NCBI GenBank assembly: GCA_041661275.1
Contig: JBAZUU010000004.1
Span: 71,480 to 135,479 of the forward strand
Direction of reading: 5' to 3'
Source of the DNA: Parcubacteria group bacterium
Lineage (GTDB): Bacteria; Patescibacteriota; Minisyncoccia; Moranbacterales; UBA2206
DNA length: 64,000 bases
Below are positions 6,887 to 58,060 of this stretch, piece after piece. A model generated the notes under the pieces. It was not told the DNA's origin. It ran no database searches and saw nothing but the letters and a program-made list of their open reading frames with translations. Position numbers and translations under genes: made by a program. Every line of letters begins with the position of its first letter. Position 1 is the first letter of the stretch.

Positions 6887-7453
6887 ATGGACAAGAGAAA
6901 AATAGTAATAGGTCTCATAGGAGAGAAGGGTGCTGGAAAAGGCACTGTTTCTGATTATCTCATTGAAAAATATAAAGCCATCCACTACGGAACTTCAAAG
7001 ATACTTCGAAGGACGCTAGAGGACTTGCATCTGCCTGTCACGCGAGACAATTTAGTTAAGTTAGCCCTAGTTCTCAAAGAAGGCTATGGTCCATCGGTCA
7101 TCATTGATTCGCTTATCACAGATATGGAAAAGAATGGGTCGGATATCATCATCGCTGACGGAATCAGGATGCATGGCGATGTGGAACCGTTCAAGAAAAA
7201 ATATGGGCCGGATTTTTATCTGGTATATGTGACGGCTGACACGCGCTTGCGTTATGAGCGGACAAAAGCCAGAAAGCAAAACCACGGCGAAGAAAAGACT
7301 TCGTTCCAGGAATTTTTAGAAGAAGAAGCCAAGCTAACGGAAATCTCCATCCATGAAATAGGCAAGCAGGCTGACTTCAAACTTTCCAACAATGGCGCGC
7401 CGGAAGATCTCATCAAGCAAGTAGAGGAAATGCTTAAAGGCATATTGAAATAG
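6887..7453 (+). CDS. P-loop nucleoside/nucleotide kinase-like protein (CoaE/dNMP-kinase-like), paralog 1
   Basis: Walker A GLIGEKGAGKGT, DGIR motif, LID-like RLRYERTKAR, and a C-terminal SNNGAPEDL that matches the CoaE-type DNNGAPD ending. Confidence 0.6.
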   Translation: MDKRKIVIGLIGEKGAGKGTVSDYLIEKYKAIHYGTSKILRRTLEDLHLPVTRDNLVKLALVLKEGYGPSVIIDSLITDMEKNGSDIIIADGIRMHGDVEPFKKKYGPDFYLVYVTADTRLRYERTKARKQNHGEEKTSFQEFLEEEAKLTEISIHEIGKQADFKLSNNGAPEDLIKQVEEMLKGILK

Positions 7454-7459
7454 ACCTAC

Positions 7460-7491
7460 AATCCCGTCGCTCGCGAGCGACGGGATTTTTT
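7460..7491 (+). terminator. Rho-independent terminator
   Basis: aatcccgtcgctcgcgagcgacgggatttttt: 12-bp GC-rich stem plus T6. Confidence 0.65.
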
Positions 7492-7539: not shown

Positions 7540-8109
7540 ATGAAAATAGTCATTGGGACAGCGGGGGAGATAGCCAGTGGGAAAGAAACTGTGGCACGAT
7601 ATATCATCAAAAAATACGGCGGGTCTTTGTATAGATTTTCCGATTCTCTTCGCGAAATCCTGACCAGGATGCATCTGCCTGCCGACAGATCAAATTATCA
7701 CAAGATTTCCATGGCTTTGCGAGAGTATTTTGGTCAGGATGCACTTTCGCGGATTGTCTATAACGACATTAAAAAAAGCAAAAATAAAATAATTATTCTT
7801 GACGGGATTAGAAGGAAATCAGATACTGAATATTTGAAAGATATTAAAGGGTTTAAACTTATCTTCATTGACGCCAAGATAGAAACAAGACTAGTTAGAT
7901 TAAAAGCAAGAAAAGAAAAGCCCGATGATAAGAATAAGAGCATTGCTAAGTTTAAAAAAGAGCATGAGTCAGAAGTGGAAATAAAAATAAGAAAACTCAA
8001 GAAAATAGCTGATTTTGTGGTTGATAATAATGGTGAAAAAACGAAGCTTTTCCAGCAAATTGATCAAATCATTGATAGGATTTCCAAGAAAAAGAGTAAT
8101 TTGGTATAA
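7540..8109 (+). CDS. P-loop kinase-like protein, paralog 2 (degenerate Walker A GEIASGKET)
   Basis: Same architecture as 6887..7453 (MHLPADRSNY ~ LHLPVTRDNL; DGIRRK; RLVRLKARK; DNNGEKT). Tandem duplicate. Confidence 0.55.
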   Translation: MKIVIGTAGEIASGKETVARYIIKKYGGSLYRFSDSLREILTRMHLPADRSNYHKISMALREYFGQDALSRIVYNDIKKSKNKIIILDGIRRKSDTEYLKDIKGFKLIFIDAKIETRLVRLKARKEKPDDKNKSIAKFKKEHESEVEIKIRKLKKIADFVVDNNGEKTKLFQQIDQIIDRISKKKSNLV

Positions 8110-13917: not shown

Positions 13918-14925
13918 TTATTTTTTCAAAAATTTATTTATTTCCGATTCTGTCTTTTTATACTCGTCAATCCATTTTATACGCGTATCTTTTCTGAACC
14001 ACGTCATCTGCCGTTTGGCATAGTCTTTTTCAGCTCGGAGTATTTTTTGAAATAGTTCCTCCTTGGTTGCGATCTCACCTCTGAGATACTTAGGAATCAA
14101 AAAGTATCCAAGACCAAAGCTTTCTATTTTTTTCCAGGACAGTTTTTCTTTGGAATGTAAATTTTCCACTTCCCTTATCATTCCTTTCGCGAATCTTTTT
14201 CGAAGACGTTTTTCAATGTTTTGGTGGAGTTTTTCTTTGGGGAGATTGATGCCGATCTGGAGAAAGTTATAATTACGTGGTTTTAATTTAGAACCCTCTC
14301 CTGTCGCGAAGACGCGACATCCTCTCCCGAGGGGAGAGGAGGAATTTCTTCTTCCACCCTCTCCCTTCGGGAGAGGGTCATTCGACGAAGTCGAATGGGG
14401 AGAGGGAACCTTACCTAACGTCTTACAAATTTCTATGGCTCTTATTAACCGTACTTTGTTTTTGGCGTCAATACTTTTGGCTCGCTGGGGATCTAGTTTT
14501 TTTAGCATTGTGAATAATTTTTCCGCCGAATAATTACGTAAATAATTACGTAATTTCCAATCAGGTTTTACTTCCGGGTAGATTACATTATCAACAATGG
14601 CTTTTATCCAAAAGCCAGTGCCTCCACAGATAATGGGCAATTTCCCACGTTTCAGGATATCCTTAATAATCTTTTCGGCATCTTTTTTAAATTTAGCGGC
14701 GTTGTAATTTGTTCGCGGACTGACGATATCAATCATATAATGTTTAGCTAGCTTCTGTTCAGCTTTAGTAATCTTACCTGTTCCAATATCCAGTCCGCGA
14801 TAGATTTGTCTTGAGTCAGCGGAAATAATTTCACCGTTGAATTTTTTGGCAAGTCGAATTGCCACATCCGATTTTCCGGAAGATGTGGAGCCGAGGATGA
14901 CGATTATCTTATTATTTCCTTCCAT
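13918..14925 (-). CDS. miaA: tRNA dimethylallyltransferase MiaA carrying in-frame palindromic insertions
   Basis: IIVILGSTSSGKSDVAIRLAKKFNGEIISADSRQIY P-loop. ~38 aa (PSPHSTSSNDPLPKGEGGRRNSSSPLGRGCRVFATGEG) derive from the palindromic repeat at 14294-14406. Confidence 0.85.
   Translation of the reverse strand: MEGNNKIIVILGSTSSGKSDVAIRLAKKFNGEIISADSRQIYRGLDIGTGKITKAEQKLAKHYMIDIVSPRTNYNAAKFKKDAEKIIKDILKRGKLPIICGGTGFWIKAIVDNVIYPEVKPDWKLRNYLRNYSAEKLFTMLKKLDPQRAKSIDAKNKVRLIRAIEICKTLGKVPSPHSTSSNDPLPKGEGGRRNSSSPLGRGCRVFATGEGSKLKPRNYNFLQIGINLPKEKLHQNIEKRLRKRFAKGMIREVENLHSKEKLSWKKIESFGLGYFLIPKYLRGEIATKEELFQKILRAEKDYAKRQMTWFRKDTRIKWIDEYKKTESEINKFLKK
14294..14406. repeat. Family-B palindromic element (two tandem CCCTCTCC...GGGAGAGG hairpins) inside the miaA CDS
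   Basis: ccctctcctgtcgcgaagacgcgacatcctctcccgaggggagagg + ccaccctctcccttcgggagagggtcattcgacgaagtcgaatggggagaggg. Related copies at 24565-24625 and 54688-54739. Confidence 0.6.
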
Positions 14926-16159
14926 ATCTTATTAACTCTCTTAAGACTTTTTCTCTCCTTTTCTTTTCCGGCAAATCGACCGTTTCTTTCATCTTCCACG
15001 CGGCAGTATCGGGGCGGGGAGAATATTTATTGATATATGCTTCATTGTAGCTGACAGTTTTGAAAACTTTTATTGACTCGGAGAAATCCTTTTTGGCTTC
15101 ACCCGGGAAGCCGACGATTATGTCAGTAGTAAATTCGGCTTCTGGAATTATTTTTTTTATCTTTTTAATGAGATTCAGATAATACTTTTGCGTGTATGGT
15201 CGGTTCATGGCCTTGAGAATCTTGTCGCTTCCAGCCTGGACAGGCAAATGGATCTCTCGGGAAATATTTTTGTTTTTGGCAATAACTTTTATCAGTTCGT
15301 TAGAAAAATCTTTGGGGTGAGAGGTTAAAAACTTGAAGCGAATTTGAGGGTTTGATTTGGCAAGGTAATCCAAGAGTTTCGGAAAGTCTACAGTGACAGA
15401 ATTTTTAATTTTTAATTTTAAATTTTTAATCAATTTTAAATTTCCTAATTTTGAATTTTTAAACTCATAGTTATAACTATTAACGTTCTGTCCGAGAAGA
15501 GTTATTTCTTTGCAGTCATTTTTTGTCAGCGATTTTATTTCTTTGATAATATCTTCTACGGGTCTCGAAATCTCTCTACCTCTGGCGTAGGGGACGACGC
15601 AATAGGAGCAGAAGTTGTTACAGCCGGTCATTATCGGCACGTACACTTTATTGTTGTTAATGTATTTTGGAATAATATCCAAATAAGAACCGTCATTCTG
15701 AGCGGAATGACCCCGCCCTTGGCGGGGGAATGTAGCCGAAGAATCTGCCTTTTGGGTTTTCTGGTTATATTTTTTAGTAGATCCTTCGACTACGTTCCGA
15801 TAAGAATCGGAACTTCGCTCAGGATGACGGACTAAGAGAGGTTTTAATTTTTCCGGAAAATTATTTATATTACAGAATAAATCAACCTTATCTTCTAATC
15901 TTCTTTGCACGTCTTTTCTGTCGGCAAGGCAGCCGGTGAGGATGATAGTAATTTTTGGGTTTGATTTTCGTAGATTATGCACAAGTCCATAAACCCTATT
16001 TTCCGCCGACTGACGCACGCCGCAAGTATTGAAAATCACCAAGTTGGCCTGGTTTATATCTTTGGTTGGTTTAATTCTATGCGTTTCTAGAAACCCAGCA
16101 ATTCGCTCGGAATCGCTTTCATTCATTTGACAGCCGAAAGTTTTGATGTAATATTTCAT
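14912..16159 (-). CDS. miaB: tRNA-i6A37 methylthiotransferase MiaB carrying an in-frame MITE insertion
   Basis: MKYYIKTFGCQMNESDSERIAG MTTase N-terminus and radical SAM GCNNFCSYC. A 47-codon insert (15690-15830) is the family-A repeat. Confidence 0.85.
   Translation of the reverse strand: MKYYIKTFGCQMNESDSERIAGFLETHRIKPTKDINQANLVIFNTCGVRQSAENRVYGLVHNLRKSNPKITIILTGCLADRKDVQRRLEDKVDLFCNINNFPEKLKPLLVRHPERSSDSYRNVVEGSTKKYNQKTQKADSSATFPRQGRGHSAQNDGSYLDIIPKYINNNKVYVPIMTGCNNFCSYCVVPYARGREISRPVEDIIKEIKSLTKNDCKEITLLGQNVNSYNYEFKNSKLGNLKLIKNLKLKIKNSVTVDFPKLLDYLAKSNPQIRFKFLTSHPKDFSNELIKVIAKNKNISREIHLPVQAGSDKILKAMNRPYTQKYYLNLIKKIKKIIPEAEFTTDIIVGFPGEAKKDFSESIKVFKTVSYNEAYINKYSPRPDTAAWKMKETVDLPEKKRREKVLRELIRYGRK
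15690..15830. repeat. Family-A MITE-like nested-hairpin repeat, copy 1 (141 bp, inside miaB CDS, in frame)
   Basis: ccgtcattctgagcggaatga...gaagaatctgcc...agatccttcgactacgttcc...cgctcaggatgacgg. Both the outer and the inner inverted repeats are present. Confidence 0.7.
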
Positions 16160-16224
16160 AGAAGTTCTTGTGGGTAAAGTGGTATCCATTAGGATACTAA
16201 AATATTAACGAATTATCAAGGAGG

Positions 16225-24333: not shown

Positions 24334-27300
24334 AATTGTCACTTTTCCTTCCGGTAGAACGGCTTTGATTTTTTCCTGGATATCATCCAGTTTTTTGATG
24401 CAATAGGGAGTTTCCAGTTTGGAATTATTTATTTCCAAAATTACTTTCATCGCCCCACGATCGCAGGAGTCGAAGAATTGAGAAAGTTTCTTGATCGATT
24501 CTTGGCCGCATTCCGCAGGAAGAGTAATAAATAATTTAGGATTATGGATAGTTTGTCCCTCATCCGCCTGCCGTAAATTTTCAGAAAAATTTTGGCAGGC
24601 CCCTTCTCCCGAAGGGAGAAGGGGTTTTGAAGGAGTATTTCTTTTTTGGGTGGCCATAATTCTTTTCATATTTTCCACTTCTTTTTGGTCGACTATTTTG
24701 GCGTTGTCTACCAGGATCTTGAAATTCCCATCCTTGTCGGAAACGCGGCCACTGGCGATGATGATCTTTTCTTCTTCGAAAACTGAACCAAGACGTTCCA
24801 GGACTTTTGGAAAAACAAGAAGTTCAATGCTGGAATCGACACTCTCAATGGTAACGAAACACATCATTTGCTGGCTTTTGGTATATATTTTTTTTATTTT
24901 GGAAATAATTCCGCCGACACTGACATTTTGGCCGACACTAGACTGATTGATATTTCTGATGTTTGTTGCTACCTTGTTAAAATAGTCCTGATAATCTTTG
25001 ACTGGGTGGTCGCTGATGTAGAGTCCCAAAAGTTCTTTTTCCCAGGTCAATTTTTGTTTGGCGGTTGCTTCTGGAGCGCTGGCCAACGTAATTTGCGGCA
25101 GATTTATTTCCTCTTCTCCAAAAAGGCTGGCTTGCGAACTATTTTTGATACGCTCAAGATTTTTGGAATGAGCCAGGATCATTTCTATCGAAGTTATAAT
25201 TTGATTTCTTTCGCCCAGATCATCAAGCGCGCCGACTTTGGCCAGAGCTTCAATGGATTTTTTATTCAGATCTTTGTGATGGACGCGCTCGATAAGGTCA
25301 GTGATACTTTTAAACTTCCCGTTTCTTTTTCTCTCTTCAACAACTTCATGCGCAATTGTATGCCCGACGTTTTTGACAGCATTGAGTCCAAAGCGGATCC
25401 TTTCTTTTTTATCAGTCGGGTCAATAATAACAGCGAATTCTTCAAAACTTTCATTGATGTTCGGTGGTAGGACTTCAATGCCCATTTCCCGGACCTCGGC
25501 AATTTCAATGGCTACGCGATCGATGTCGTCCTGGTCGGAAGTGAGAAGAGCGGCCATAAATTCCGCCGGATAATGAGCTTTGAGATAGGCGGTTTGATAT
25601 CCGATGAGTGCATAACAGGCAGCGTGCGAACGATTAAAACCGTATCCGGCGAACGGTTCGATAAAAGAAAAAACCTCTTCAGCGATGACACTGGAAATTC
25701 CCTGACGTAAACATCCATCGATAAATTTAGCCCGCTCTTCCTGAATGAGAGCGAAAACTTTTTTGCCCATCGCTTTTCGGAGAACATCCGCTTCACCAAG
25801 GGAAAATCCAGCCATCGATTGCGCTATCTGCATCACTTGTTCCTGATAGACAGCTACGCCGTAGGTTTTTCCCAAGATTGGCTCAAGCAATGGATGAAGA
25901 TATCTTATCTGACGCTCGCCATGTTTTCTGGCGATAAAGTCGGGGATCCAATCCATCGGTCCCGGGCGGTAGAGAGCCACCATAGCAATAATGTCTTCAA
26001 AAACGTTTGGTTTTAATAATTTTAAGTATCTTTTCATACCGGAACTTTCCAACTGAAACACGCCGGTTGTTCGGGCATCTTGCAAAAGCTTGAAGGCTTT
26101 AGGATCATCAGCCGGAATATCATCAATATTGATTTCCACGCCTTTGGTTTTTTTCAAAATTCGCAAAGTATTTTGAATGATGGTCAGGTTTTTCAGTCCC
26201 AAAAAATCCATTTTCAGAAGCCCAATCTTTTCTATAAAACTATATTTTGTGGAAGAGGAATATTGCGTGACAGCTCCTGATTCTTTTCCGATAATTTTTT
26301 GTAAGGGGGTATATTCCACCACTGGCTCGCGGGTGATCACCACGCCACACGCATGCATTGACGCATGGCGAGCCACTCCTTCCAGACGCTTGGCTGAATC
26401 GATCAATTTTTTAGCGTCTTCTCCGGAACCATAAAGGTCAGAAAATTCCTTGACGTTTTTGAGGGCATCTTCAATTCCAGAAAACATCGGAATGAGCTTG
26501 GCCGTTTTGTCGCAAAAATCATAAGGGAGGCCAAGCGCCCGGCCAGCGTCACGGATAGCGGCTCGCGCAGCCATTGTTCCAAAAGTGATGATCTGCGCCA
26601 CGTGATCGTTGCCATATTTTTCCCTGACATAATCCAACACTTCATCCCGGCGATCGTCAGCGAAGTCCATATCAACATCCGGCATAGATATTCTTTCCGG
26701 GTTCAAAAATCTTTCAAAAAGAAGGTCATATTTGACCGGGTCGATGTTGGTGATTCCGATGAGATATGAAACGAAACTTCCTGCGGCTGATCCGCGTCCC
26801 GGTCCCACAACTATTCCCTGATCTTTCGCCCAATTGACGAAATCCTGAACGATCAAAAAGTATGACGCAAATCCGGTTTTTTGGATGATGTCCAGTTCAT
26901 ATTCCATTCTTTTTAAATATTCTTCGCCGGGATTTTCGCCAAATTTTTTATGCAAACCTTCTTCTGTCAGTTTTCTGAGATATGATTCGGCATTGTATCC
27001 ATCCGGCACATCGAAGTGGGGGAGCTGGGTTTCTCCGAGTTTGATTTCCAAATTACATGCCTCGACAATTTTTTGGGTGTTTTCTAATGCTTCCGGAACG
27101 TCCTTAAAATGTTCATACATTTCTTCCGGACTCTTGAGCCAAAGTTCAAAAGCCATCAAATTCATCCGGTTGTCTTCCTGCACTTTGCGGTTAGTTTGGA
27201 TGCAAAGCAAAATATCCTGGATAGAATTATCACCGCTATTCACATAATGGATATCATTAGTAGCGACCAAAGGGATATCCAGTTTTTTGGAAATTTTTTT

Positions 27301-28033: not shown

Positions 28034-28452
28034 ATAAAATTGGAAATAATAAAAACCACCTGTTAAAGTAGTCTAAAAAAATTTCTCTGAATAATATATT
28101 ACCACCATACTTTTTTTATCCTCATAGCCCAGGTTGCCCTTTGGGATTTGCAGGATAGTTATGGATATATAGTAGCATACAATATTATAACAAAAAAGAC
28201 CCGGGTTTACCGGTCTTCTTTTTTGCTTTTTATTTTTCTCGAGATTTGTTGTTTTTTCTAAATCTATCTCTCATGATAAGATAGATTGAGAAATAATAAC
28301 CAAAGAACTTTACGAACCCCGCACTAATTCCGAGTAAAATATAATAAACATATAATTTTTACCACGGAATCGCCTGCGGCTTAAAATCGGATAACTTCAA
28401 AGTCTATTTCTTGAATTAGTGCGGGGCAGGCACCATATTATTTTACTACTGT

Positions 28453-29157
28453 ATGAAAAAACAGTCAATATCAAAAATACTAAAAACTGAACAAAAATAT
28501 CTGGACAATGGATACGATTTTGTTATTGGCATAGATGAGGCAGGACGGGGGCCGTTGGCGGGGCCAGTAGTGGCTTGCGCGGTTTGTTATAGGAATGGAG
28601 GCTCGGCCTCCATTATGGAGGCCGAGCCTCCAAAGCGATTTGAGTCAATAAAGGATAGTAAAAAGCTTTCTGAAAAGCAGCGGGAAGAATTATATGATTT
28701 TATACACGAGCATTTCCATGTCGGTATTGGAATCTGTGACCACAAAACAATCGATAGGATAAATATTTTGGAAGCGACGTATCTTTCTATGAAAAAAGCG
28801 CTTACCTTCCTAACATCCGATGTTAGGATGAATAAGATGATAGTGTTGGTCGATGGCAATAAAGTTATTCCCAATTGCAGTTATGAACAAAAAGCGATTG
28901 TTAACGGCGACAATATTGTGAAATCAATTTCGGCGGCTTCGATCATTGCCAAAGTGACGCGGGATCGGATGATGAAAAAAATGCACGATAAATATCCGAA
29001 GTATAATTTTGCTTCTCATAAGGGATATGGGACGAAATTGCATATGGAAATGATAAAAAAGCATGGAGCTTGTGAGATACATAGGAAGAGCTTTAGACCC
29101 TGCAATCTTAAGAGAGTCTCTTCTGCCCGTCATTCTGAGCGGAATCGAGTCCGTTAG
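28453..29157 (+). CDS. rnhB: Ribonuclease HII (C-terminus extended by read-through into a MITE copy; internal in-frame palindrome)
   Basis: FVIGIDEAGRGPLAGPVVACAV catalytic motif. An internal NGGSASIMEAEPPK segment is encoded by the perfect palindrome at 28597-28635. The last ~12 aa (ARHSERNRVR) come from the repeat at 29127. Confidence 0.85.
   Translation: MKKQSISKILKTEQKYLDNGYDFVIGIDEAGRGPLAGPVVACAVCYRNGGSASIMEAEPPKRFESIKDSKKLSEKQREELYDFIHEHFHVGIGICDHKTIDRINILEATYLSMKKALTFLTSDVRMNKMIVLVDGNKVIPNCSYEQKAIVNGDNIVKSISAASIIAKVTRDRMMKKMHDKYPKYNFASHKGYGTKLHMEMIKKHGACEIHRKSFRPCNLKRVSSARHSERNRVR
28597..28635. repeat. Perfect 15-bp-stem palindrome inside the rnhB CDS
   Basis: ggaggctcggcctcc attat ggaggccgagcctcc. 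Confidence 0.6.
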
Positions 29158-29263
29158 GACGAGATGAAGTCGAAGAATCTGCCAAATAATATTACTAGTG
29201 GTATTTTTGAGTAGATCCTTCGACTTCGTTCGGATAAAATCCTCACTACGCTCAGGATGACGG
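29127..29263. repeat. Family-A MITE-like repeat, copy 3 (overlaps the 3' end of rnhB)
   Basis: ccgtcattctgagcggaatcgagtccgttaggacgagatgaagtcgaagaatctgccaaat...agatccttcgacttcgttcgg...cgctcaggatgacgg. Confidence 0.7.
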
Positions 29264-29307
29264 ACTGTTTTGTTGATTTTTGCGTTTAATTGGGATAATA
29301 TGTAACT

Positions 29308-30906
29308 ATGAAGGAAGAGATAAAAAAAGTCTTAAAAAAATCTTTAAACGAAACAAAAACCCAAGAAAACTGGGATATTTCTGAAATGCCTGAAATTGAA
29401 GTAGATTATCCTCGTGACGAGCAATTTGGCGATTTTACCACCAATATTGCTATGGTTTTGGCTAAAATTATCAAGAAAAACCCCTTGGAAATAGCGGCGG
29501 CTATAAAAGAAAACATCAAGTCCAATGTAATAAAAAATGTGGATATTGTCGCTCCGGGGTACATCAATGTTACCCTAAAAACGAAGTATTTGCAGAAAAT
29601 AGTGGCTCAAATCGCAGAATATGGCAAGAAATTCGGCGAAAATGACCTCGGAAAGGGTCAAAAGGTGCTTTTGGAGTTCATTTCATCCAATCCAACAGGT
29701 CCAATTCACATCGGAAATGCCCGAGGAGGGCCACTGGGCGACACTTTGGCGCGTGTTTTAGAGAAAACCGGCTATAAAACAGAGAGGGAATTCTATATCA
29801 ATGACTGGGGCAATCAGATCGAAATTCTGGGTCATTCAGTTTTAGGCGACAGTGAAGCGCAATATTCCGGCGACTATATCAAAATTCTTACGGAGAAAAT
29901 GGATAAAAAAATAACCAACCCGTTGGAAATCGGCCATTGGGCGGCGCATAAAATTATTCAAGAATATATCAAACCGACATGCAAAAAAGCGGGAATAAAA
30001 TTCGACAGTTGGTACAGTGAAAAAGATGAGTTGCACGAAAAAGATAAAGTAGGAGAAATAATAAAATTTATTGAAGAAAAGGGATTGACCTATGAAAAAG
30101 AAGGCGCGCTTTGGTATAAATCTATCCAGTTTGGTGATGACAAAGATCGAGTGCTAGTGAAATCCGATGGCAAAAAAACATACATTGCTACCGATTTTGC
30201 TTATCATAAAGAAAAAGCAGATAGGGGATATAATAAACTAATTAATATCCAAGGCGCCGACCATCACAAAGAGGCGGAAGTAGTGAAAAATTTTACGGAA
30301 AAAGTATTAGGTGCAAAAATAAAAGTTGATTATATCCTGACGCAAATTGTCAAAGTGGTTGAAAATGGAGTGGAGGTAAAAATGTCCAAAAGAAAGGGGA
30401 CATATTTTGCCCTTGATGATCTCATCGATGAAGTAGGAAAAGACGCGGTGCGGTTTATCTTCCTTTCCTATTCATCGACCAATCACATCAATTTCGATAT
30501 TAATTTAGCGAAAGTTCAATCAGACAAAAATCCGGTCTATTATGTCCAGTATGCTCACGCCAGAATATCTTCAATCCTCAAAAAGGCCAAGACTCTCAAT
30601 TTCAAATTCGATAAGAAAAATTCTGCCGAGCTTCTGACCCACGAAAAAGAGATAGGCCTCATCCGTGAACTTTCCAAATTTCCAGCGCTTCTCGAAGAAA
30701 TTTCCCAAAGTTATGAAGTGCACAGGCTGCCATTTTACGCTATGAAACTGGCCGATAAGTTCCATTCGTTCTATGGTGCTTGCAAAGTGCTGGACGAAAA
30801 GAATAGTGAACTGACACGCGCTAGACTAAACCTGGTGAATGCTGTTAAGATAGTACTAGCTGAAGTATTGGAGTTGATGGGAGTGGAGGCGCCGGAAAAA
30901 ATGTAG
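29308..30906 (+). CDS. argS: Arginyl-tRNA synthetase
   Basis: Class I motifs: SNPTGPIHIGNARGG (HIGH region) and a KMSK variant (KMSKRKG). C-terminal DALR anticodon-binding domain. Confidence 0.9.
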   Translation: MKEEIKKVLKKSLNETKTQENWDISEMPEIEVDYPRDEQFGDFTTNIAMVLAKIIKKNPLEIAAAIKENIKSNVIKNVDIVAPGYINVTLKTKYLQKIVAQIAEYGKKFGENDLGKGQKVLLEFISSNPTGPIHIGNARGGPLGDTLARVLEKTGYKTEREFYINDWGNQIEILGHSVLGDSEAQYSGDYIKILTEKMDKKITNPLEIGHWAAHKIIQEYIKPTCKKAGIKFDSWYSEKDELHEKDKVGEIIKFIEEKGLTYEKEGALWYKSIQFGDDKDRVLVKSDGKKTYIATDFAYHKEKADRGYNKLINIQGADHHKEAEVVKNFTEKVLGAKIKVDYILTQIVKVVENGVEVKMSKRKGTYFALDDLIDEVGKDAVRFIFLSYSSTNHINFDINLAKVQSDKNPVYYVQYAHARISSILKKAKTLNFKFDKKNSAELLTHEKEIGLIRELSKFPALLEEISQSYEVHRLPFYAMKLADKFHSFYGACKVLDEKNSELTRARLNLVNAVKIVLAEVLELMGVEAPEKM

Positions 30907-31020: not shown

Positions 31021-32184
31021 ATGAGGATCGGTATCGATGCAAGGACTATACTGAATCCGGAAAAAGGCGAGGCGATCGGGGTAGGGCATTATACCTACCA
31101 GTTGATCCGTCATCTTCTGGAGATCGATTCTGAAAACGAATATGTTTTGTTTTTTGATTTTCGCGTTCGGGAAAAAGACGTCAAAAAATTCACCAAGCTC
31201 AATGTGAAAATAAAATTCTACCCGTTTTCTGATTATAAAAAATATCTGCCCGGAGCCTACAATGAAATTTTGGGCATGGCGACACTCGCGCGAGAAAAAT
31301 TGGATGTTATTCATTCCACTTCTCCATCAAGCCGGATCCCGACCAGCTATCGCGGAAAAACTATCGTTACTGTGCATGATCTGGCTTCATACAAAGTGCC
31401 GGATATCTTTCCGAGCTTCAAAGTAGCAAAATACAAAGCGACAATGAACCTTATGGTATCCAAAGCCGACAAAATTATTGCCGTTTCCAATTCCACCAAA
31501 AAAGATCTGTGTGACATTTTTGGATGCAACGAGGATAAGATAAGAGTCATTTATTCCGGTTTTGATAAGCGCCTACTCGAAGAATCAAAGGTCAGCCGGG
31601 AAAAAGTTTTGGAAAAATATGGGATTAATGACGGCAAAAAATATATTCTGTTTTTGGGAACTCTTGAGCCGGTGAAAAATCTGACGAGACTTTTTGAGGC
31701 TTATAAAATATTTAAAGAGAAATGTGGTAAGGGAAGTGGGAGTTGTGATTATAAATTGGTCATTGCCGGAAAGAAAGGTTGGCTTGGGAAAGAATATCGG
31801 CAAATAGTAAAAGATCTCGGTATCGCCAAAGACGTAATTTTTACCGGTTATATAATCGGCGATGAGCTTGTGCCGCTTTTCAAAAACGCCGATTTTTTCG
31901 TGATGCCTTCACTTTATGAAGGATTTGGCACAACTGTTCTTGAAGCTTTTGCTACCGGCACGCCAGCCATCGTTTCGGGCGTTTCTTCCATTCCGGAACT
32001 AGCCGGAGATGCGGCGGTTCTCGTCAATCCGCTAAACACCCAGGAAATCGCTGATGCTATGGTTAAATTAGCAGGAGATGACAAATTGCGCTATGACCTG
32101 CGACAACTTGGTTTCCATCAGGTGGAAAAATTTGATTGGAAAAAGACGGCGAAAGAAACTCTTGAAGTTTATAAAAATGTATAA
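31021..32184 (+). CDS. Glycosyltransferase family 4 (GT-B fold)
   Basis: MRIGIDARTI... N-terminus and a C-terminal EGFGTTVLEAFATGTPAIVS GT1/GT4 motif. Confidence 0.8.
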   Translation: MRIGIDARTILNPEKGEAIGVGHYTYQLIRHLLEIDSENEYVLFFDFRVREKDVKKFTKLNVKIKFYPFSDYKKYLPGAYNEILGMATLAREKLDVIHSTSPSSRIPTSYRGKTIVTVHDLASYKVPDIFPSFKVAKYKATMNLMVSKADKIIAVSNSTKKDLCDIFGCNEDKIRVIYSGFDKRLLEESKVSREKVLEKYGINDGKKYILFLGTLEPVKNLTRLFEAYKIFKEKCGKGSGSCDYKLVIAGKKGWLGKEYRQIVKDLGIAKDVIFTGYIIGDELVPLFKNADFFVMPSLYEGFGTTVLEAFATGTPAIVSGVSSIPELAGDAAVLVNPLNTQEIADAMVKLAGDDKLRYDLRQLGFHQVEKFDWKKTAKETLEVYKNV

Positions 32185-35110
32185 GAAGATTGATCCTAAA
32201 ATGAATCTTCCAAAGATGGAGGAAGACGTTTTGAAATTTTGGGAGGAAAATAAAATATTTGAAAAGTCTTTAGAGAATAGAAAGGATGCGCCTTTGTATT
32301 CTTTTTATGATGGACCACCATTTGCCACTGGCCTTCCGCATCACGGGCATCTTTTAGCTTCAACCTCAAAAGATGTTGTTCCTCGCTTTTGGACAATGAA
32401 GGGATATAATGTTCCGCGAAGATGGGGATGGGATACCCACGGTTTGCCAATCGAAAATATTGTCGAGAAAAAATTAGGTTATAAGGGCAAGAAAGAAATC
32501 GAGGAAAATATTTCTAAATTTAATGAAGAAGCAAAAAACACAGTTCTTCAATTTGCCGATGAGTGGAAAAAAACTATCCGAAGAATTGGACGTTGGGTGG
32601 ATTTTGATAATTCCTATAAAACCATGGATTCAACTTTTATGGAATCAGTTTGGTGGGGGTTTAAGGAGTTGGATAAAAAAGGACTGGTTTATAAGGATTC
32701 AAGAATTTCGTTATACTGTCCGCATTGTGCTACACCACTTTCTAATTTCGAGATTGCTATGGACAATTCCTACAAGATGGATAAAGATGTTTCGATTTAT
32801 GTGAAAATTGGCTTAAAAGATAATCCAGGAACTTACTTTTTAGTCTGGACAACAACTCCCTGGACACTGTTAGCTAATGTTGCACTCGCTGTTGGAGAAA
32901 AAATAAAATATGTAGAAGTAAGATATGACAAAGAAAAATATATTATAGCCAAAGACCTTATAGATAAAGTAATTCCGGAAGATGATTATGAACTTATCAG
33001 CGAGTTTGATGGAAAGGATCTGATTGGAAAGGAATATGATCCGATTTTTCCTCATAATATCGAAAATGGGTACCGTGTGGTGGCGGGAGATTTTGTGAAT
33101 ATTGAAGATGGAACAGGGATAGTTCATTTAGCGCCAGCTTATGGGGAAGATGACTTTCAAGCGAGAAAGAAAAATAACTTGCCTCTAATTGAAAATGTTG
33201 ACGATGAAGGGCAATTCACGGAAGGGCAGTGGAAAGGAATGAATGTTTGGGATGCTAATTTTAAGGTTGTTGGGTATATCCATGAAAAAGGATTGTTATT
33301 CAAAAAAGAAAACATCACTCACTCTTATCCACATTGCTATCGATGTGACGCGAAATTAATTTATAAGGCTCAACCAGCCTGGTTTATAAAAGTATCAGAG
33401 TTTAAAGATGAGTTGATAAGCGAAAACGAAAATATTAACTGGCATCCAGAACATTTGAAACATGGAAGATTTTTGAACGGCTTGGAAAACGCGCCAGATT
33501 GGAATGTTTCACGCTCCCGATATTGGGGAAACCCGATGCCTATTTGGGAATGTGAAAAATGTAAAGAAATAGAAATTGTTGGATCATACGATGAGCTGGA
33601 AAAACTTTCTGGAAAAAAGCTCGATGATTATCACAGGCCATTTATTGACGAGATAACTTTTGACTGTGAAAAATGCAAAGGCAAGATGAAAAGAGTTTTA
33701 GATGTGTTTGATTGTTGGGTAGAATCAGGATCGATGCCTTTTGCAGAATTTCATTATCCTTTCGAAAACAAAGAGATATTTGAAAAAAGATTTCCGGCAC
33801 AATTTATATCCGAATATATCGCCCAGACGCGAGGCTGGTTTTATACTCTTCACGTTTTGTCGGTCGGACTTTTTGAAAAACCCAGTTTTATAAACGCAGT
33901 AACGACCGGGACGATTGCTGGAAGCGACGGAAAAAAAATGTCAAAGTCGCAAGGAAATTTTACTGATCCTAATGTCCTTCTTGATAAATATGGAGCAGAT
34001 TCTTTCAGATTTTATTTGATGCAATCTTCTCTTATGGAAGGGGAGAATCTAAATTTTCTCGATAAAGATCTGGAAGCTATCTTTAAAGGAATGTTTCGCA
34101 TGATGTGGAATTCATATTCGTTTTTTGTGCTTTATGCCAACGTCGACAAATGGAATCCTGATCCTAAAACCGGGTTTTGGGATGAATCCCAAAACCCGGT
34201 TTTAGGAAGCCGAAATATTTTAGACCGCTGGATAGTTTCTGAATTACAAACGCTCATTAAAGATGTTAATGAAAATATGGAAAATTATGAGTTGACCAGA
34301 GCAGCGAGGCTGTTTCCAAAATTTATCGACAATCTTTCCAATTGGTATATCAGGCGTTCCAGAAGGAGATTTTGGAAGTCGGAGTCCGACTCCGATAAAA
34401 AAGAAGCCTATGAAACTTTGCATTATGTTTTGGTGACGCTTTCAAAACTGATGGCGCCATTCACGCCGTTCATCGCGGAGGAGATATTTCGGAATTTATC
34501 AGACGCAGGGAACAAAAATTTTTGTTCCGTACACCTCCAGGATTTTCCGGTGGCCGATGAAAAATTGATTGATGAAAAATTAAATGAAGAGATGGCAAAA
34601 GTGAGAGACATTATCACACAAGGCTTGCAACTTCGCGCGATGGCGAAAATAAAAGTCAGACAGCCATTGGAAAAATTTTTGATTGCCAATTTGGAGCTTT
34701 CTCATAAAGAACTTTTGGAAATCATCCGTGAAGAAATGAATGTGAAGAAGGTTGAGATGGTGGAAAAAGTCAAAGAAGGGGAAAGCTGGATAATCGGGGA
34801 GATTGGGGAAATTAGCGTTGGTTTAAATATTGAGATCACCGAAGAACTTAGGCTGGAAGGTGTGGCGCGGGAGATAATCCGGCATATTCAGGAGATGCGA
34901 AAAGAGGCCGGGTATGATGTTGACAACCGGATAAAAGTATGCTATGCTGGTTGGTCAGTGGTTTTCGAGAAATTTGGCGATCTGATCGCCAAGGAAACTC
35001 TGGCTGATTCTTTACAAAATAATAAACCGGATCAATCCGATCTGGAAAAGGAATTTAATATTGAGGGGGAAAAAGTTCTTATTTATATAAAACGAACCAA
35101 AAATACATAA
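32177..35110 (+). CDS. ileS: Isoleucyl-tRNA synthetase
   Basis: PPFATGLPHHGHL (HIGH), KMSKSQGN (KMSKS), CP1 editing domain and zinc-finger C-terminus. The ATG overlaps the stop of the GT4 gene (ATGTATAA). Confidence 0.9.
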   Translation: MYKKIDPKMNLPKMEEDVLKFWEENKIFEKSLENRKDAPLYSFYDGPPFATGLPHHGHLLASTSKDVVPRFWTMKGYNVPRRWGWDTHGLPIENIVEKKLGYKGKKEIEENISKFNEEAKNTVLQFADEWKKTIRRIGRWVDFDNSYKTMDSTFMESVWWGFKELDKKGLVYKDSRISLYCPHCATPLSNFEIAMDNSYKMDKDVSIYVKIGLKDNPGTYFLVWTTTPWTLLANVALAVGEKIKYVEVRYDKEKYIIAKDLIDKVIPEDDYELISEFDGKDLIGKEYDPIFPHNIENGYRVVAGDFVNIEDGTGIVHLAPAYGEDDFQARKKNNLPLIENVDDEGQFTEGQWKGMNVWDANFKVVGYIHEKGLLFKKENITHSYPHCYRCDAKLIYKAQPAWFIKVSEFKDELISENENINWHPEHLKHGRFLNGLENAPDWNVSRSRYWGNPMPIWECEKCKEIEIVGSYDELEKLSGKKLDDYHRPFIDEITFDCEKCKGKMKRVLDVFDCWVESGSMPFAEFHYPFENKEIFEKRFPAQFISEYIAQTRGWFYTLHVLSVGLFEKPSFINAVTTGTIAGSDGKKMSKSQGNFTDPNVLLDKYGADSFRFYLMQSSLMEGENLNFLDKDLEAIFKGMFRMMWNSYSFFVLYANVDKWNPDPKTGFWDESQNPVLGSRNILDRWIVSELQTLIKDVNENMENYELTRAARLFPKFIDNLSNWYIRRSRRRFWKSESDSDKKEAYETLHYVLVTLSKLMAPFTPFIAEEIFRNLSDAGNKNFCSVHLQDFPVADEKLIDEKLNEEMAKVRDIITQGLQLRAMAKIKVRQPLEKFLIANLELSHKELLEIIREEMNVKKVEMVEKVKEGESWIIGEIGEISVGLNIEITEELRLEGVAREIIRHIQEMRKEAGYDVDNRIKVCYAGWSVVFEKFGDLIAKETLADSLQNNKPDQSDLEKEFNIEGEKVLIYIKRTKNT

Positions 35111-54687: not shown

Positions 54688-54739
54688 CCCTCTCTGTCAC
54701 GATAGGAATCGTGACATCTCTCCCGGAGGGAGAGAGGGA
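54688..54739. repeat. Family-B palindromic element upstream of the NIF3 gene
   Basis: ccctctctgtcacgataggaatcgtgacatctctcccggagggagagaggg. Same architecture as the first hairpin at 14294. Confidence 0.5.
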
Positions 54740-58011: not shown

Positions 58012-58060
58012 GCAGTTTGTGCAGGTTTGATATTCGACTTAGACATTTGATGTCTAAGTT

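What the first reader, a model, noticed from the sequence alone, without database searches (positions are those of the whole stretch)
28597..28635. rnhB carries an in-frame perfect palindrome and its C-terminus is extended by read-through into a MITE copy
ggaggctcggcctcc-attat-ggaggccgagcctcc has a 15-bp perfect stem. It sits inside the RNase HII CDS and is translated as NGGSASIMEAEPPK, between the catalytic N-terminal region and the rest of the fold. The ORF does not stop at the usual RNase HII C-terminus (...HRKSFRPC). It continues about 15 codons into the family-A repeat at 29127, ending ...ARHSERNRVR.
Basis: partly seen in the sequence, partly recalled or inferred. Interest (0 to 1): 0.6.

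Follow-up and report, generated by a model that had tools for sequence, protein, structure and literature searches.

The report
Translated hairpin insert in RNase HII
A perfect 37-base palindrome sits in frame in a tolerant surface loop of the RNase HII gene of a Parcubacteria/Moranbacteria-type bacterium. Relatives keep a hairpin at the same spot whose two arms always change together, and the gene now ends inside a small mobile repeat, so this is "selfish or self-perpetuating DNA inside an essential gene" seen in a new lineage, not a new machine.

Summary
Window 28596-28632 is a perfect 18+1+18 palindrome inside the rnhB ORF (28453-29157). It lies in the loop between strand β2 and the DSK motif. 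That loop is 13 aa in about 55 ordinary bacteria and 24 aa here. Seven orthologues from independent metagenomes carry a 14-18 bp hairpin within a few nucleotides of the same place. Over eight sequences, 117 of 120 stem positions are Watson-Crick, none is G·T, and 11 of 15 pairs changed on both sides and never on one side only. The peptide is not conserved and the AlphaFold model gives it low confidence. Other orthologues lack the hairpin or carry different repeats there.

My best reading is a translated "coding palindrome" in a permissive loop. Its arms are probably kept complementary by DNA-level conversion (template switching), not by a required function. A cis-acting hairpin is not excluded.

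The C-terminal claim also holds, but only about 10 codons (Ala225 to the TAG stop) lie in the 137-bp MITE-like repeat (29127-29263), not 15.

The same window has other in-frame hairpins (dnaE, IleRS, an unidentified ORF) and a whole MITE in frame in MiaB, much as in Rickettsia. The finding is moderately interesting.

The parts
28453..29157 (+). rnhB (RNase HII) ORF, 234 aa, including the inserted loop and the repeat-derived tail
   Evidence: ORF list. Pfam RNase_HII E = 2.1e-36. PDB sequence hits to T. maritima and E. coli RNase HII, E about 1e-38. Foldseek best hit 3o3f_A, E = 9e-20. A 100%-identical protein is named ribonuclease HII in a Parcubacteria MAG.
28582..28653 (+). Expanded, hypervariable loop between β2 (VVACA) and the DSK motif: 24 codons where ordinary bacteria have 13
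   Evidence: The loop is 13 aa in about 55 diverse genomes and 18-70 aa with unrelated sequences in Moranbacteria orthologues (alignment A1).
28596..28632 (+). Perfect 18+1+18 palindrome (a 17-bp stem with a 3-nt loop when folded), in frame, coding NGGSASIMEAEPP
   Evidence: Orthologous hairpins show compensated changes. pLDDT averages 55 for residues 51-60 and is below 50 for residues 50-54.
28808..28828 (+). Second, smaller in-frame palindrome (10+1+10, TCCTAACATC-C-GATGTTAGGA, coding FLTSDVRM) in the second variable loop of rnhB. Its core resembles the GACATC.GATGTC unit that forms the loop-1 hairpin in other orthologues.
29127..29263 (+). MITE-like repeat copy (137 nt). Terminal inverted repeats are CCGTCATTCTGAGCG / CGCTCAGGATGACGG, with a nested inner inverted repeat.
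   Evidence: 6 copies in the window (inner inverted repeat I3).
29125..29157 (+). Repeat-derived C-terminal tail of rnhB: codon 225 (GCC, straddling the boundary), RHSERNRVR, and the TAG stop
   Evidence: Coordinates. pLDDT is 52-57 for residues 211-234. Orthologues end 2-16 residues after SFRP.
29274..29276 (+). Inferred pre-insertion stop codon (TGA). If 29127-29263 is removed, the frame reads ...RVSSALFC*, 31 nt before argS.
   Evidence: Inference from the sequence and the repeat boundaries. The rnhB-argS spacers in relatives are 30-72 nt. No target-site duplication was recognised, so the exact junction is uncertain.
29308..30906 (+). argS, the downstream gene. Synteny dnaE(-) / rnhB(+) / argS(+) is conserved in relatives.

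Best explanation
The palindrome is a translated 'coding palindrome'. It is about 33 nt of extra, hairpin-forming DNA sitting in frame in a structurally permissive surface loop of RNase HII.

Shown:
- It is extra relative to canonical RNase HII.
- It is inherited at essentially the same site in related Moranbacteria.
- Its two arms always differ between lineages by paired, exactly complementary changes.
- The encoded peptide is free to vary.

Inferred:
- The arms are kept complementary mainly by a DNA-level process: intramolecular template switching or gene conversion between the arms of a quasi-palindrome during replication. A mutation in one arm is either erased or copied into the other.
- Because the element lies in an essential reading frame, it cannot easily be lost by imprecise deletion, so it persists as a self-perpetuating passenger.
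- The protein tolerates it as an 11-13-residue disordered loop.
- No function is required, although side effects on mRNA folding or translation speed are likely.

The C-terminal extension is a separate, recent event. A 137-bp MITE-like repeat inserted into the last codons of rnhB. Its terminal inverted repeat is open in this frame, so it replaced the original end (inferred ...ALFC*) with ...ARHSERNRVR*.
For: 1. Extra segment. The loop is 13 aa in about 55 diverse bacteria and 24 aa here. There is a 13-residue gap against T. maritima RNase HII. Confidence is low only in this loop and the tail of an otherwise confident RNase HII fold.

2. Same-site hairpins in 7 orthologues from independent samples:
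- L002 is a perfect 18+1+18 palindrome with 5 stem positions different from the window, all compensated.
- L001 has 1 compensated change.
- L089, L090 and L091 carry GGACATCGGATGTCC / GGACATCCGATGTCC.
- L094 and L095 carry further compensated variants.

3. Covariation count on the 8 sequences:
- 97.5% of cells are paired.
- 11 of 15 pairs changed on both sides (33 cells), and 0 pairs changed on one side only.
- 0 of 500 shuffles reach the observed score; slid controls are 29-44% paired.

4. Signs that the constraint is at the DNA level rather than on an RNA stem:
- 0 G·T pairs among 120.
- In the window, L001, L002 and L095 the symmetry continues through bases that cannot pair in a hairpin loop (loop of 0-1 nt).
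- Each arm is itself partly self-complementary.

5. The hairpin is dispensable and turns over:
- The loop has unrelated contents in other orthologues, including close ones. P0003/L093 has no hairpin, L092 has a 14-nt tandem duplication, and L084 has a 58-nt complex palindrome.
- P0002 and P0005 peptides are compatible with 17-bp stems in the same register.

6. Genome-wide habit:
- 20 perfect hairpins against 1.7 expected.
- In-frame hairpins occur in dnaE, IleRS and ORF 13918-14925.
- The TCTCCC-NNN-GGGAGA unit occurs 4 times in the window and twice in the L084 rnhB.
- A whole MITE is in frame in the MiaB linker.

7. Precedent. Perfect inverted repeats in Nematomorpha mitochondrial genes were argued to be maintained by repeat conversion or template switching (PMC6649704). 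Quasi-palindrome template-switch mutagenesis in E. coli and yeast appears in the abstracts of PMC7202029 and PMC8604942.

8. Tail. Orthologues stop 2-16 residues after SFRP.
Against: - No direct evidence distinguishes conversion from selection on the hairpin. A stable stem of similar size (14-18 bp) at the same place in lineages whose proteins are only 55-76% identical is also what a functional cis-element would look like.
- The GGACATCGGATGTCC stem is identical in three orthologues about 60-70% identical to the window protein (L089, L090, L091; their identity to one another was not measured). That is more conservation than neutral drift with conversion obviously predicts.
- The two hairpin types start 5 nt apart relative to the upstream anchor (+15 against +10). 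They may not be one element by descent.
- Only 8 hairpin DNAs were obtained, and they were chosen partly because their peptides looked palindromic.
- Translation of the loop and tail is inferred from the frame, not observed.
- The rate of template switching in these organisms is unknown.
Confidence: 0.58

Rival explanations
1. The hairpin is a functional cis-acting nucleic-acid element embedded in the coding sequence and kept by selection on base pairing. It could be an mRNA stem that tunes rnhB translation or stability (for example an RNase III or ribosome-pausing site), or a DNA hairpin or cruciform recognised by a protein.
For: - The hairpin sits at the same site with similar geometry (15-5-15 in the window, L090 and L094) across orthologues, with 11 of 15 pairs covarying and 97.5% pairing.
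- It is very stable (z = -8).
- The peptide is unconstrained while the pairing is conserved.
Against: - There are no G·U pairs or one-sided changes in 120 cells.
- The palindromic symmetry runs through unpaired loop bases.
- The arms are self-complementary, which would compete with the long stem.
- The hairpin is absent from close relatives (L093) and replaced by unrelated inserts in many others.
- Similar in-frame hairpins occur in unrelated genes of the same window.
- There is no Rfam match and no terminator-like tail.
Confidence: 0.2
2. The hairpin is a copy of a dispersed, mobile short palindromic element (REP/REPIN- or RPE-like) that targets this site. The different hairpin types in orthologues are independent insertions or cassette replacements, not one element evolving in place.
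For: - Other small hairpin units clearly are dispersed. TCTCCC-NNN-GGGAGA occurs in four places in the window and in the L084 rnhB.
- The GACAT..ATGTC unit occurs in loop 1 of L089-L091, in loop 2 of the window rnhB, and in intergenic DNA at 58037-58059. The intergenic copy is nearly identical to a 23-nt stretch of L091.
- The L084-type element appears at other positions and frames in other orthologues.
- The two hairpin types are offset by 5 nt upstream and are interleaved in the protein tree.
Against: - The GGAGGCTCGGCCTCC palindrome has no second copy in 64 kb or in the flanks of L001 and L002.
- There are no extra GACATC double units in the 2-kb flanks of L089-L091.
- Neither hairpin type is found in viral contigs.
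- Within each type the divergence is graded (1-5 compensated pairs), as expected for evolution in place.
- No transposase or RAYT-like gene was looked for or seen.
Confidence: 0.17
3. The palindromic segment is not part of the protein. It would be skipped by translational bypassing (as with mitochondrial 'byps' or T4 gene 60) or removed from the mRNA, or it is an assembly error.
For: GC-rich hairpin inserts in AT-rich genes that are bypassed are known in Magnusiomyces mitochondria (cited in PMC6649704). Hairpins are also error-prone in assembly.
Against: - All eight hairpin-bearing loops are stop-free and keep the frame despite different lengths (63-78 nt).
- Hopping from GGA (28597) to the GGA at 28617 would run into a stop within 7 codons (read).
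- Independent assemblies from different samples give orthologous hairpins.
Confidence: 0.03

Closest known systems
Rickettsia palindromic elements (RPEs; Ogata et al. 2000, 2002, as summarised in PMC10969869)
   Same: Palindromic, hairpin-forming DNA inserted in frame into unrelated housekeeping genes of a small-genome bacterium, at positions compatible with the protein fold. The MITE copy inside MiaB and the MITE-derived rnhB tail in this window match this pattern well.
   Different: - RPEs are about 100-150 bp, belong to multi-copy sequence families, and lose arm identity with time (quoting ref. 7).
- The rnhB hairpin is 35-37 nt and single-copy in 64 kb.
- It stays perfectly complementary across divergent orthologues.
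- There is no sequence relationship to RPEs, and the phylum is different.
Coding palindromes in Nematomorpha mitochondrial genes (PMC6649704)
   Same: Perfect inverted repeats inside functional protein-coding genes, with both arms translated. Repeat identity is 'binary' (perfect or absent), gain and loss between species are dynamic, and arm conversion or template switching was proposed instead of function.
   Different: - Those repeats are in mitochondria, not bacteria, and are much longer (up to 284 bp).
- They overlap conserved protein segments.
- Here the palindrome sits in a hypervariable loop as extra sequence.
- A hairpin is retained at one orthologous site across several lineages.
REP / REPIN elements and 'GTAG- and CGTC-tagged' palindromic repeats (PMC3733652)
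   Same: Short (20-40 nt) GC-rich stem-loops in bacterial genomes. The 137-bp repeat here begins C-CGTC-ATT, and several small hairpin units in the window are dispersed.
   Different: - REPs are by definition extragenic, high-copy and imperfect, and are associated with RAYT transposases.
- The rnhB hairpin is intragenic, translated, perfect and single-copy in the window.
- It lacks a GTAG or CGTC tag.
- No RAYT was examined.
Quasi-palindrome-associated template-switch mutagenesis (E. coli and yeast; PMC7202029, PMC8604942, PMC3820800)
   Same: It provides the mechanism I infer: arms of imperfect inverted repeats are homogenised to perfect complementarity in one step. This produces exactly the paired changes seen here and can alter coding sequence.
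   Different: It is a mutational process, not an element family. It has not been demonstrated in Patescibacteria, and its rate there is unknown.
Bacterial MITEs that create in-frame fusions (ERIC, BOX, Correia, QMITE; PMC10969869, PMC5896051)
   Same: For the tail: a short non-autonomous repeat with terminal inverted repeats, present in multiple copies, inserted at a gene end and supplying new C-terminal codons and the stop.
   Different: No target-site duplication was recognised. No parent IS or transposase was identified. The family is not matched to any named MITE.

Membership tests
RNase HII (Pfam PF01351) | Significant match to the family profile over the full domain | tested here: met
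   E = 2.1e-36, 126 bits against a cutoff of 25.8, profile positions 1-199 of 199. PDB RNase HII hits have E about 1e-38.
RNase HII (Pfam PF01351) | RNase H-like fold with the conserved DEAGRG and DSK motifs intact around the insert | tested here: met
   D28, E29, G31, R32, G33, D68, S69 and K70 are invariant in alignment A1. The AlphaFold model has pTM 0.82 and matches 3o3f_A at E = 9e-20. Enzyme activity is not testable here.
Coding palindrome (perfect inverted repeat inside a translated CDS, in the sense of PMC6649704) | Perfect inverted repeat wholly inside an intact ORF, with both arms in frame and stop-free | tested here: met
   28596-28632 lies inside ORF 28453-29157. The same holds in 7 orthologues.
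Coding palindrome (perfect inverted repeat inside a translated CDS, in the sense of PMC6649704) | Arm identity actively maintained: differences between lineages are paired, with no excess of imperfect repeats | tested here: met
   117 of 120 positions are Watson-Crick, there are 0 one-sided changes, and 11 of 15 pairs changed on both sides.
Coding palindrome (perfect inverted repeat inside a translated CDS, in the sense of PMC6649704) | The gene product is made and functional | not testable with these tools
   Only inferred from the intact frame and conserved catalytic motifs.
Rickettsia palindromic element-like / dispersed mobile palindromic element (applied to the hairpin) | Multiple related copies dispersed in the same genome | tested here: not met
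   There is no other copy of the 15-nt arm in 64 kb with up to 3 mismatches, and none in the flanks of orthologous loci. Only 64 kb of the genome was available, so the rest is untested.
Rickettsia palindromic element-like / dispersed mobile palindromic element (applied to the hairpin) | In-frame insertion at a fold-compatible site of a housekeeping protein | tested here: met
REP / REPIN | Extragenic location, high copy number, GTAG or CGTC tag, associated RAYT | tested here: not met
   The hairpin is intragenic, single-copy in the window, and has no GTAG or CGTC at its ends. RAYT presence was not tested.
MITE (applied to the repeat at 29127-29263) | Short (<300 bp), with terminal inverted repeats, no coding capacity of its own, and multiple copies | tested here: met
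   137 nt. The 15-nt terminal inverted repeats are CCGTCATTCTGAGCG / CGCTCAGGATGACGG. There are 6 copies in 64 kb at 66% mean column identity.
MITE (applied to the repeat at 29127-29263) | Target-site duplication and a related autonomous IS element | tested here: inconclusive
   No consistent flanking duplication is visible in alignment A2. No parent IS was searched for.
Known structured RNA family (Rfam) | Match to a curated covariance model | tested here: not met
   Only two noise-level hits (E = 0.14 and 0.78, both well below the gathering score), neither at the hairpin.

The most novel reading that the evidence does not exclude
Two novel readings remain open.

(a) Moranbacteria-type Patescibacteria may have an unusually active palindrome-generating and palindrome-homogenising process (template switching or arm conversion). 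It would write perfect hairpins into essential genes and keep them perfect over long evolutionary times. That would be a bacterial counterpart of the Nematomorpha mitochondrial 'coding palindromes', and a previously undescribed source of protein loop variation in this radiation.

(b) The rnhB hairpin may be a conserved cis-acting structure hidden in a coding loop.
Probability: 0.25. Interest if true: 0.7.

Novelty: new variant of a known kind. Interest (0 to 1): 0.45.

Why it matters
- Annotation. The 234-aa 'ribonuclease HII' on record for this MAG contains about 11 residues of palindrome-derived loop and about 10 residues of repeat-derived tail. Many 'lineage-specific insertions' in Patescibacteria proteins may be of this origin.
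- Evolution. A hairpin whose arms co-vary perfectly without G·U intermediates, inside an essential gene, is a clean natural case for separating DNA-level arm conversion from RNA-structure selection. [quoted passage not shown] I found no report of this in the searched literature.
- Caveat for RNA-motif discovery. Covariation alone would score this hairpin as a structured RNA.

Tried and rejected
It was useful only as the 13-aa loop baseline.
- The metagenome scan with the single protein gave only 6 loci, of which 2 were close relatives.
- DNA for the two most informative relatives, P0002 and P0005, could not be fetched. Their hairpins are inferred from peptides only.
- A peptide query of the three reading frames of the palindrome, meant to find dispersed copies in other proteins, returned 'no candidate'. 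This is uninformative, because it should at least have found P0001.
- Viral-contig scans for both hairpin types returned 0 hits.
- The Rfam and terminator scans found nothing at the hairpin.
- The protein-level 'maximum back-translatable stem' test has a high background (shuffled loops reach 8-19 bp). It supports only a modest excess: 20 of 112 loops reach >=17 bp against 4 of 112 shuffled.
- An internal start at ATG 28615 preceded by GGAGG was rejected. The product would lack the DEAGRG motif, and the feature is absent from the GACATC-type hairpins.
- -1 frameshifting was rejected because there is no slippery heptamer upstream.
- Bypassing between the two GGA triplets was rejected because it runs into a stop.
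- The NJ tree of 70 orthologues is star-like, so I did not use it to decide between gradual evolution and replacement.

Full report
**What is there**

Window 28597-28631 reads GGAGGCTCGGCCTCC-ATTAT-GGAGGCCGAGCCTCC, exactly as reported. The symmetry is larger than reported: 28596-28632 is a perfect 18+1+18 palindrome. The 15-mer has no other copy in the 64-kb window.

The window as a whole is rich in perfect hairpins. There are 20 with stem >=10 and loop <=25, against 1.7 in shuffles, and this one is the second longest. It is predicted to fold at -37.8 kcal/mol as RNA (z = -8.0) and -23.7 kcal/mol as DNA (z = -9.5).

It lies in frame in ORF 28453-29157. That ORF is a full-length RNase HII by three measures:
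- Pfam E = 2e-36.
- PDB sequence hits at about 1e-38.
- An AlphaFold model with pTM 0.82 that matches T. maritima RNase H2 (3o3f) at E = 9e-20.

An identical 234-aa protein is on record from a 'Parcubacteria group bacterium' MAG. The nearest named relatives are Candidatus Moranbacteria.

**Is it an insertion?**

Yes. HMMER alignments to T. maritima RNase HII leave 13 query residues unmatched between β2 (VVACAV) and the DSK motif. In about 55 diverse bacterial genomes this loop is 13 residues (VILxxxxxIxGLx); here it is 24.

In 112 Moranbacteria-type orthologues the loop is 18-70 residues and hypervariable. It contains peptides typical of translated repeats, such as RTSDV...GHPMS, NCHSRESGN...IPGQARND, SSPFGRGCP...FSRREKG and low-complexity KSQIQN runs. 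A second loop and both termini vary in the same way.

The model gives low confidence only for the insert (residues 51-60 average 55; residues 50-54 are below 50) and for the C-terminal tail (52-57).

**The key new result: orthologous hairpins with fully compensated changes**

I obtained DNA for ten close orthologues.

| Locus | Hairpin at the loop-1 site | Note |
|---|---|---|
| L001 | TGAAGGTTCGGCCTCCAT-T-ATGGAGGCCGAACCTCCA | one compensated change, one basal mismatch |
| L002 | TGGAAGCTTAACTTCCAT-G-ATGGAAGTTAAGCTTCCA | perfect palindrome; 5 stem positions differ from the window, all compensated |
| L089, L090, L091 | GGACATCGGATGTCC ... GGACATCCGATGTCC | loops of 5-18 nt; L091 has a compensated G:C to A:T change at the base |
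| L094 | GACACTTCGTGTCC-CTTTT-GGACACGAAGTGTC | further compensated variant |
| L095 | 17+17 perfect palindrome | further compensated variant |

Taking the outer 15 pairs of the eight hairpins gives these counts:
- 117 of 120 cells are Watson-Crick, 0 are G·T, and the 3 mismatches are all at the stem base.
- 11 of 15 pairs show changes on both sides (33 cells), and none shows a one-sided change.
- 0 of 500 shuffles reach the observed score, and slid controls pair at 29-44%.

The peptides differ freely (GGSASIMEAEPP, GSLTSMMEVKLP, RTSDVLFGHPMS). What is conserved is therefore complementarity, not protein sequence.

**What argues for a DNA-level process rather than a selected RNA stem**

1. There is no G·U pair or one-sided change in 120 cells.
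2. In the window, L001, L002 and L095 the palindrome is perfect through the centre. That includes bases that cannot pair in a hairpin loop.
3. Each arm is itself partly self-complementary (GGAGGC-TCG-GCCTCC; GGACATC-G-GATGTCC), which is a nested symmetry.
4. The hairpin is dispensable. L093, a close relative, has none. L092 has a 14-nt tandem duplication, L083 has low-complexity sequence, and L084 has a 58-nt complex palindrome.
5. The same window has further in-frame hairpins:
   - dnaE 24600-24624;
   - ORF 13918-14925, at 14321-14378;
   - IleRS 34162-34207, with a 22-bp stem, where T. thermophilus IleRS has a 7-residue gap;
   - rnhB loop 2, 28808-28828.

This is the pattern described for Nematomorpha mitochondrial 'coding palindromes'. 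Their authors proposed repeat conversion or template switching, and a parasitic character, because deletion is not available inside a coding sequence (PMC6649704). Quasi-palindrome template switching is an established mutational mechanism (PMC7202029 and PMC8604942). I therefore favour a translated, self-perpetuating coding palindrome. The conversion step is inference.

**What keeps the rivals alive**

- A stem of similar size at nearly the same place in lineages 55-76% identical in protein is also what a functional element would show.
- The GGACATCGGATGTCC stem is identical in three orthologues that are about 60-70% identical to the window protein.
- Some small hairpin units are clearly dispersed. 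TCTCCC-NNN-GGGAGA occurs four times in the window and twice in the L084 rnhB.
- The intergenic hairpin at 58037-58059 is nearly identical to 23 nt of the L091 rnhB loop.
- The two hairpin types begin 5 nt apart relative to the upstream anchor, so replacement rather than descent is possible.
- I could not scan more than 64 kb of this genome. Scans of viral contigs found nothing.

**The C-terminus**

The repeat family has six copies in the window. Each is about 137 nt, with terminal inverted repeats CCGTCATTCTGAGCG / CGCTCAGGATGACGG and an inner inverted repeat.

The copy after rnhB spans 29127-29263. Codon 225 (GCC) straddles its start. RHSERNRVR and the TAG stop (29155-29157) are repeat-encoded. 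NLKRVSS is upstream, native sequence.

Orthologues stop 2-16 residues after SFRP. Removing the repeat gives ...SSALFC-TGA, 31 nt before argS, comparable with the spacers in relatives. This last point is inference, because no target-site duplication was seen.

About 10 codons are therefore repeat-derived, not 15. The same repeat, in the opposite orientation, sits fully in frame (49 residues, LVRHPERS...HSAQNDG) in the linker between the two MiaB domains. That is an RPE-like situation (PMC10969869).

**Comparison and novelty**

The closest known cases are:
- Rickettsia RPEs: in-frame palindromic repeats, but long, multi-copy and decaying.
- Nematomorpha coding palindromes: perfect and actively maintained, but mitochondrial and long.
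- REP/REPIN elements: extragenic and high-copy.

The rnhB hairpin fails the multi-copy criterion within the window, so I do not file it as an RPE- or REP-type element. It meets the descriptive criteria of a coding palindrome.

I found no report of this phenomenon for Patescibacteria in the searched library. I rate it a new variant of a known kind, of moderate interest.

Noticed in passing
window 15690-15835 (inside ORF 14912-16189, minus strand): A complete copy of the same MITE-like repeat lies in frame and stop-free inside a MiaB-type methylthiotransferase. It adds about 49 residues (LVRHPERS...HSAQNDG) in the linker between the N-terminal domain and the radical-SAM domain. The PDB alignment to 7mjz leaves query residues 104-166 unaligned.
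   Followed up: partly
window 34162-34207 (inside IleRS ORF 32078-35110): This is the longest perfect hairpin in the window: a 22-bp stem with a 2-nt loop, TCCTAAAACCGGGTTTTGGGAT/ATCCCAAAACCCGGTTTTAGGA. It is in frame and codes DPKTGFWDESQNPVLG. T. thermophilus IleRS has a 7-residue gap there, so part of the palindrome overlaps native coding sequence. A second 10+10 palindrome is at 34509-34528.
   Followed up: partly
window 14323-14337, 14360-14374, 24605-24619, 54719-54733; L084 1906-1920 and 1988-2002: A small dispersed hairpin unit, TCTCCC-NNN-GGGAGA, has 4 copies in the window against 0.15 expected. Two copies are in frame in ORF 13918-14925 (function not identified here), one is in frame near the C-terminus of dnaE (PLLPSGEGA), and one lies just upstream of ORF 54742. 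Two more are in the second loop of another genome's rnhB.
   Followed up: partly
window 58037-58059; L091 2150-2172: The intergenic hairpin ACTTAGACATTTGATGTCTAAGT, between convergent genes, is nearly identical to ACTTAGACATCCGATGTCTAAGT inside the rnhB loop of a different Moranbacteria genome. The GACAT..ATGTC palindromic unit therefore occurs both between genes and inside them.
   Followed up: no
window 28317-28330 and 28413-28426: A 14-bp inverted repeat, CCCCGCACTAATTC / GAATTAGTGCGGGG, has arms 82 nt apart. It lies immediately upstream of the rnhB start codon and encloses a promoter-like site (28358-28387). A terminator-like stem followed by a T-run sits at about 28199-28230.
   Followed up: no
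L092 337-402: In this orthologue the same rnhB loop carries no hairpin. It has a tandem direct repeat of a 14-nt unit (AGGAATTATGAATC, twice plus a partial copy), coding NYESGIMNQEN. The loop therefore also grows by slippage.
   Followed up: no
L084 1627-1722; proteins P0016, P0028, P0031, P0032: A 58-nt complex palindrome (TGTCATTCCCGCGAAAGCGGGAATCC...GGAATGACA, coding NCHSRESGNPDWIPGQARND) occupies loop 1 in some orthologues. Related peptides from other frames or orientations (RFRGNDK, IPACAGMT, YSRESGN) appear in loop 2 or at the N-terminus of others. This indicates a mobile element family inserting at several sites of the same gene.
   Followed up: no
window 7460-7487: A perfect 28-nt palindrome with no loop (AATCCCGTCGCTCG/CGAGCGACGGGATT, 64% GC) lies between two same-strand ORFs (6887-7453 and 7540-8109).
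   Followed up: no
window 29127-29131 and the other repeat copies: The terminal inverted repeat of the MITE-like family begins C-CGTC-ATT. This recalls the 'CGTC-tagged' REP superfamily (PMC3733652). No RAYT or parent IS was looked for.
   Followed up: no
literature (PMC3820800): In yeast, loss of RNase H2, the homologue of the gene carrying this palindrome, increases quasi-palindrome template-switch mutations. This is probably coincidental, but it means the host gene belongs to the pathway that restrains the process I invoke.
   Followed up: no
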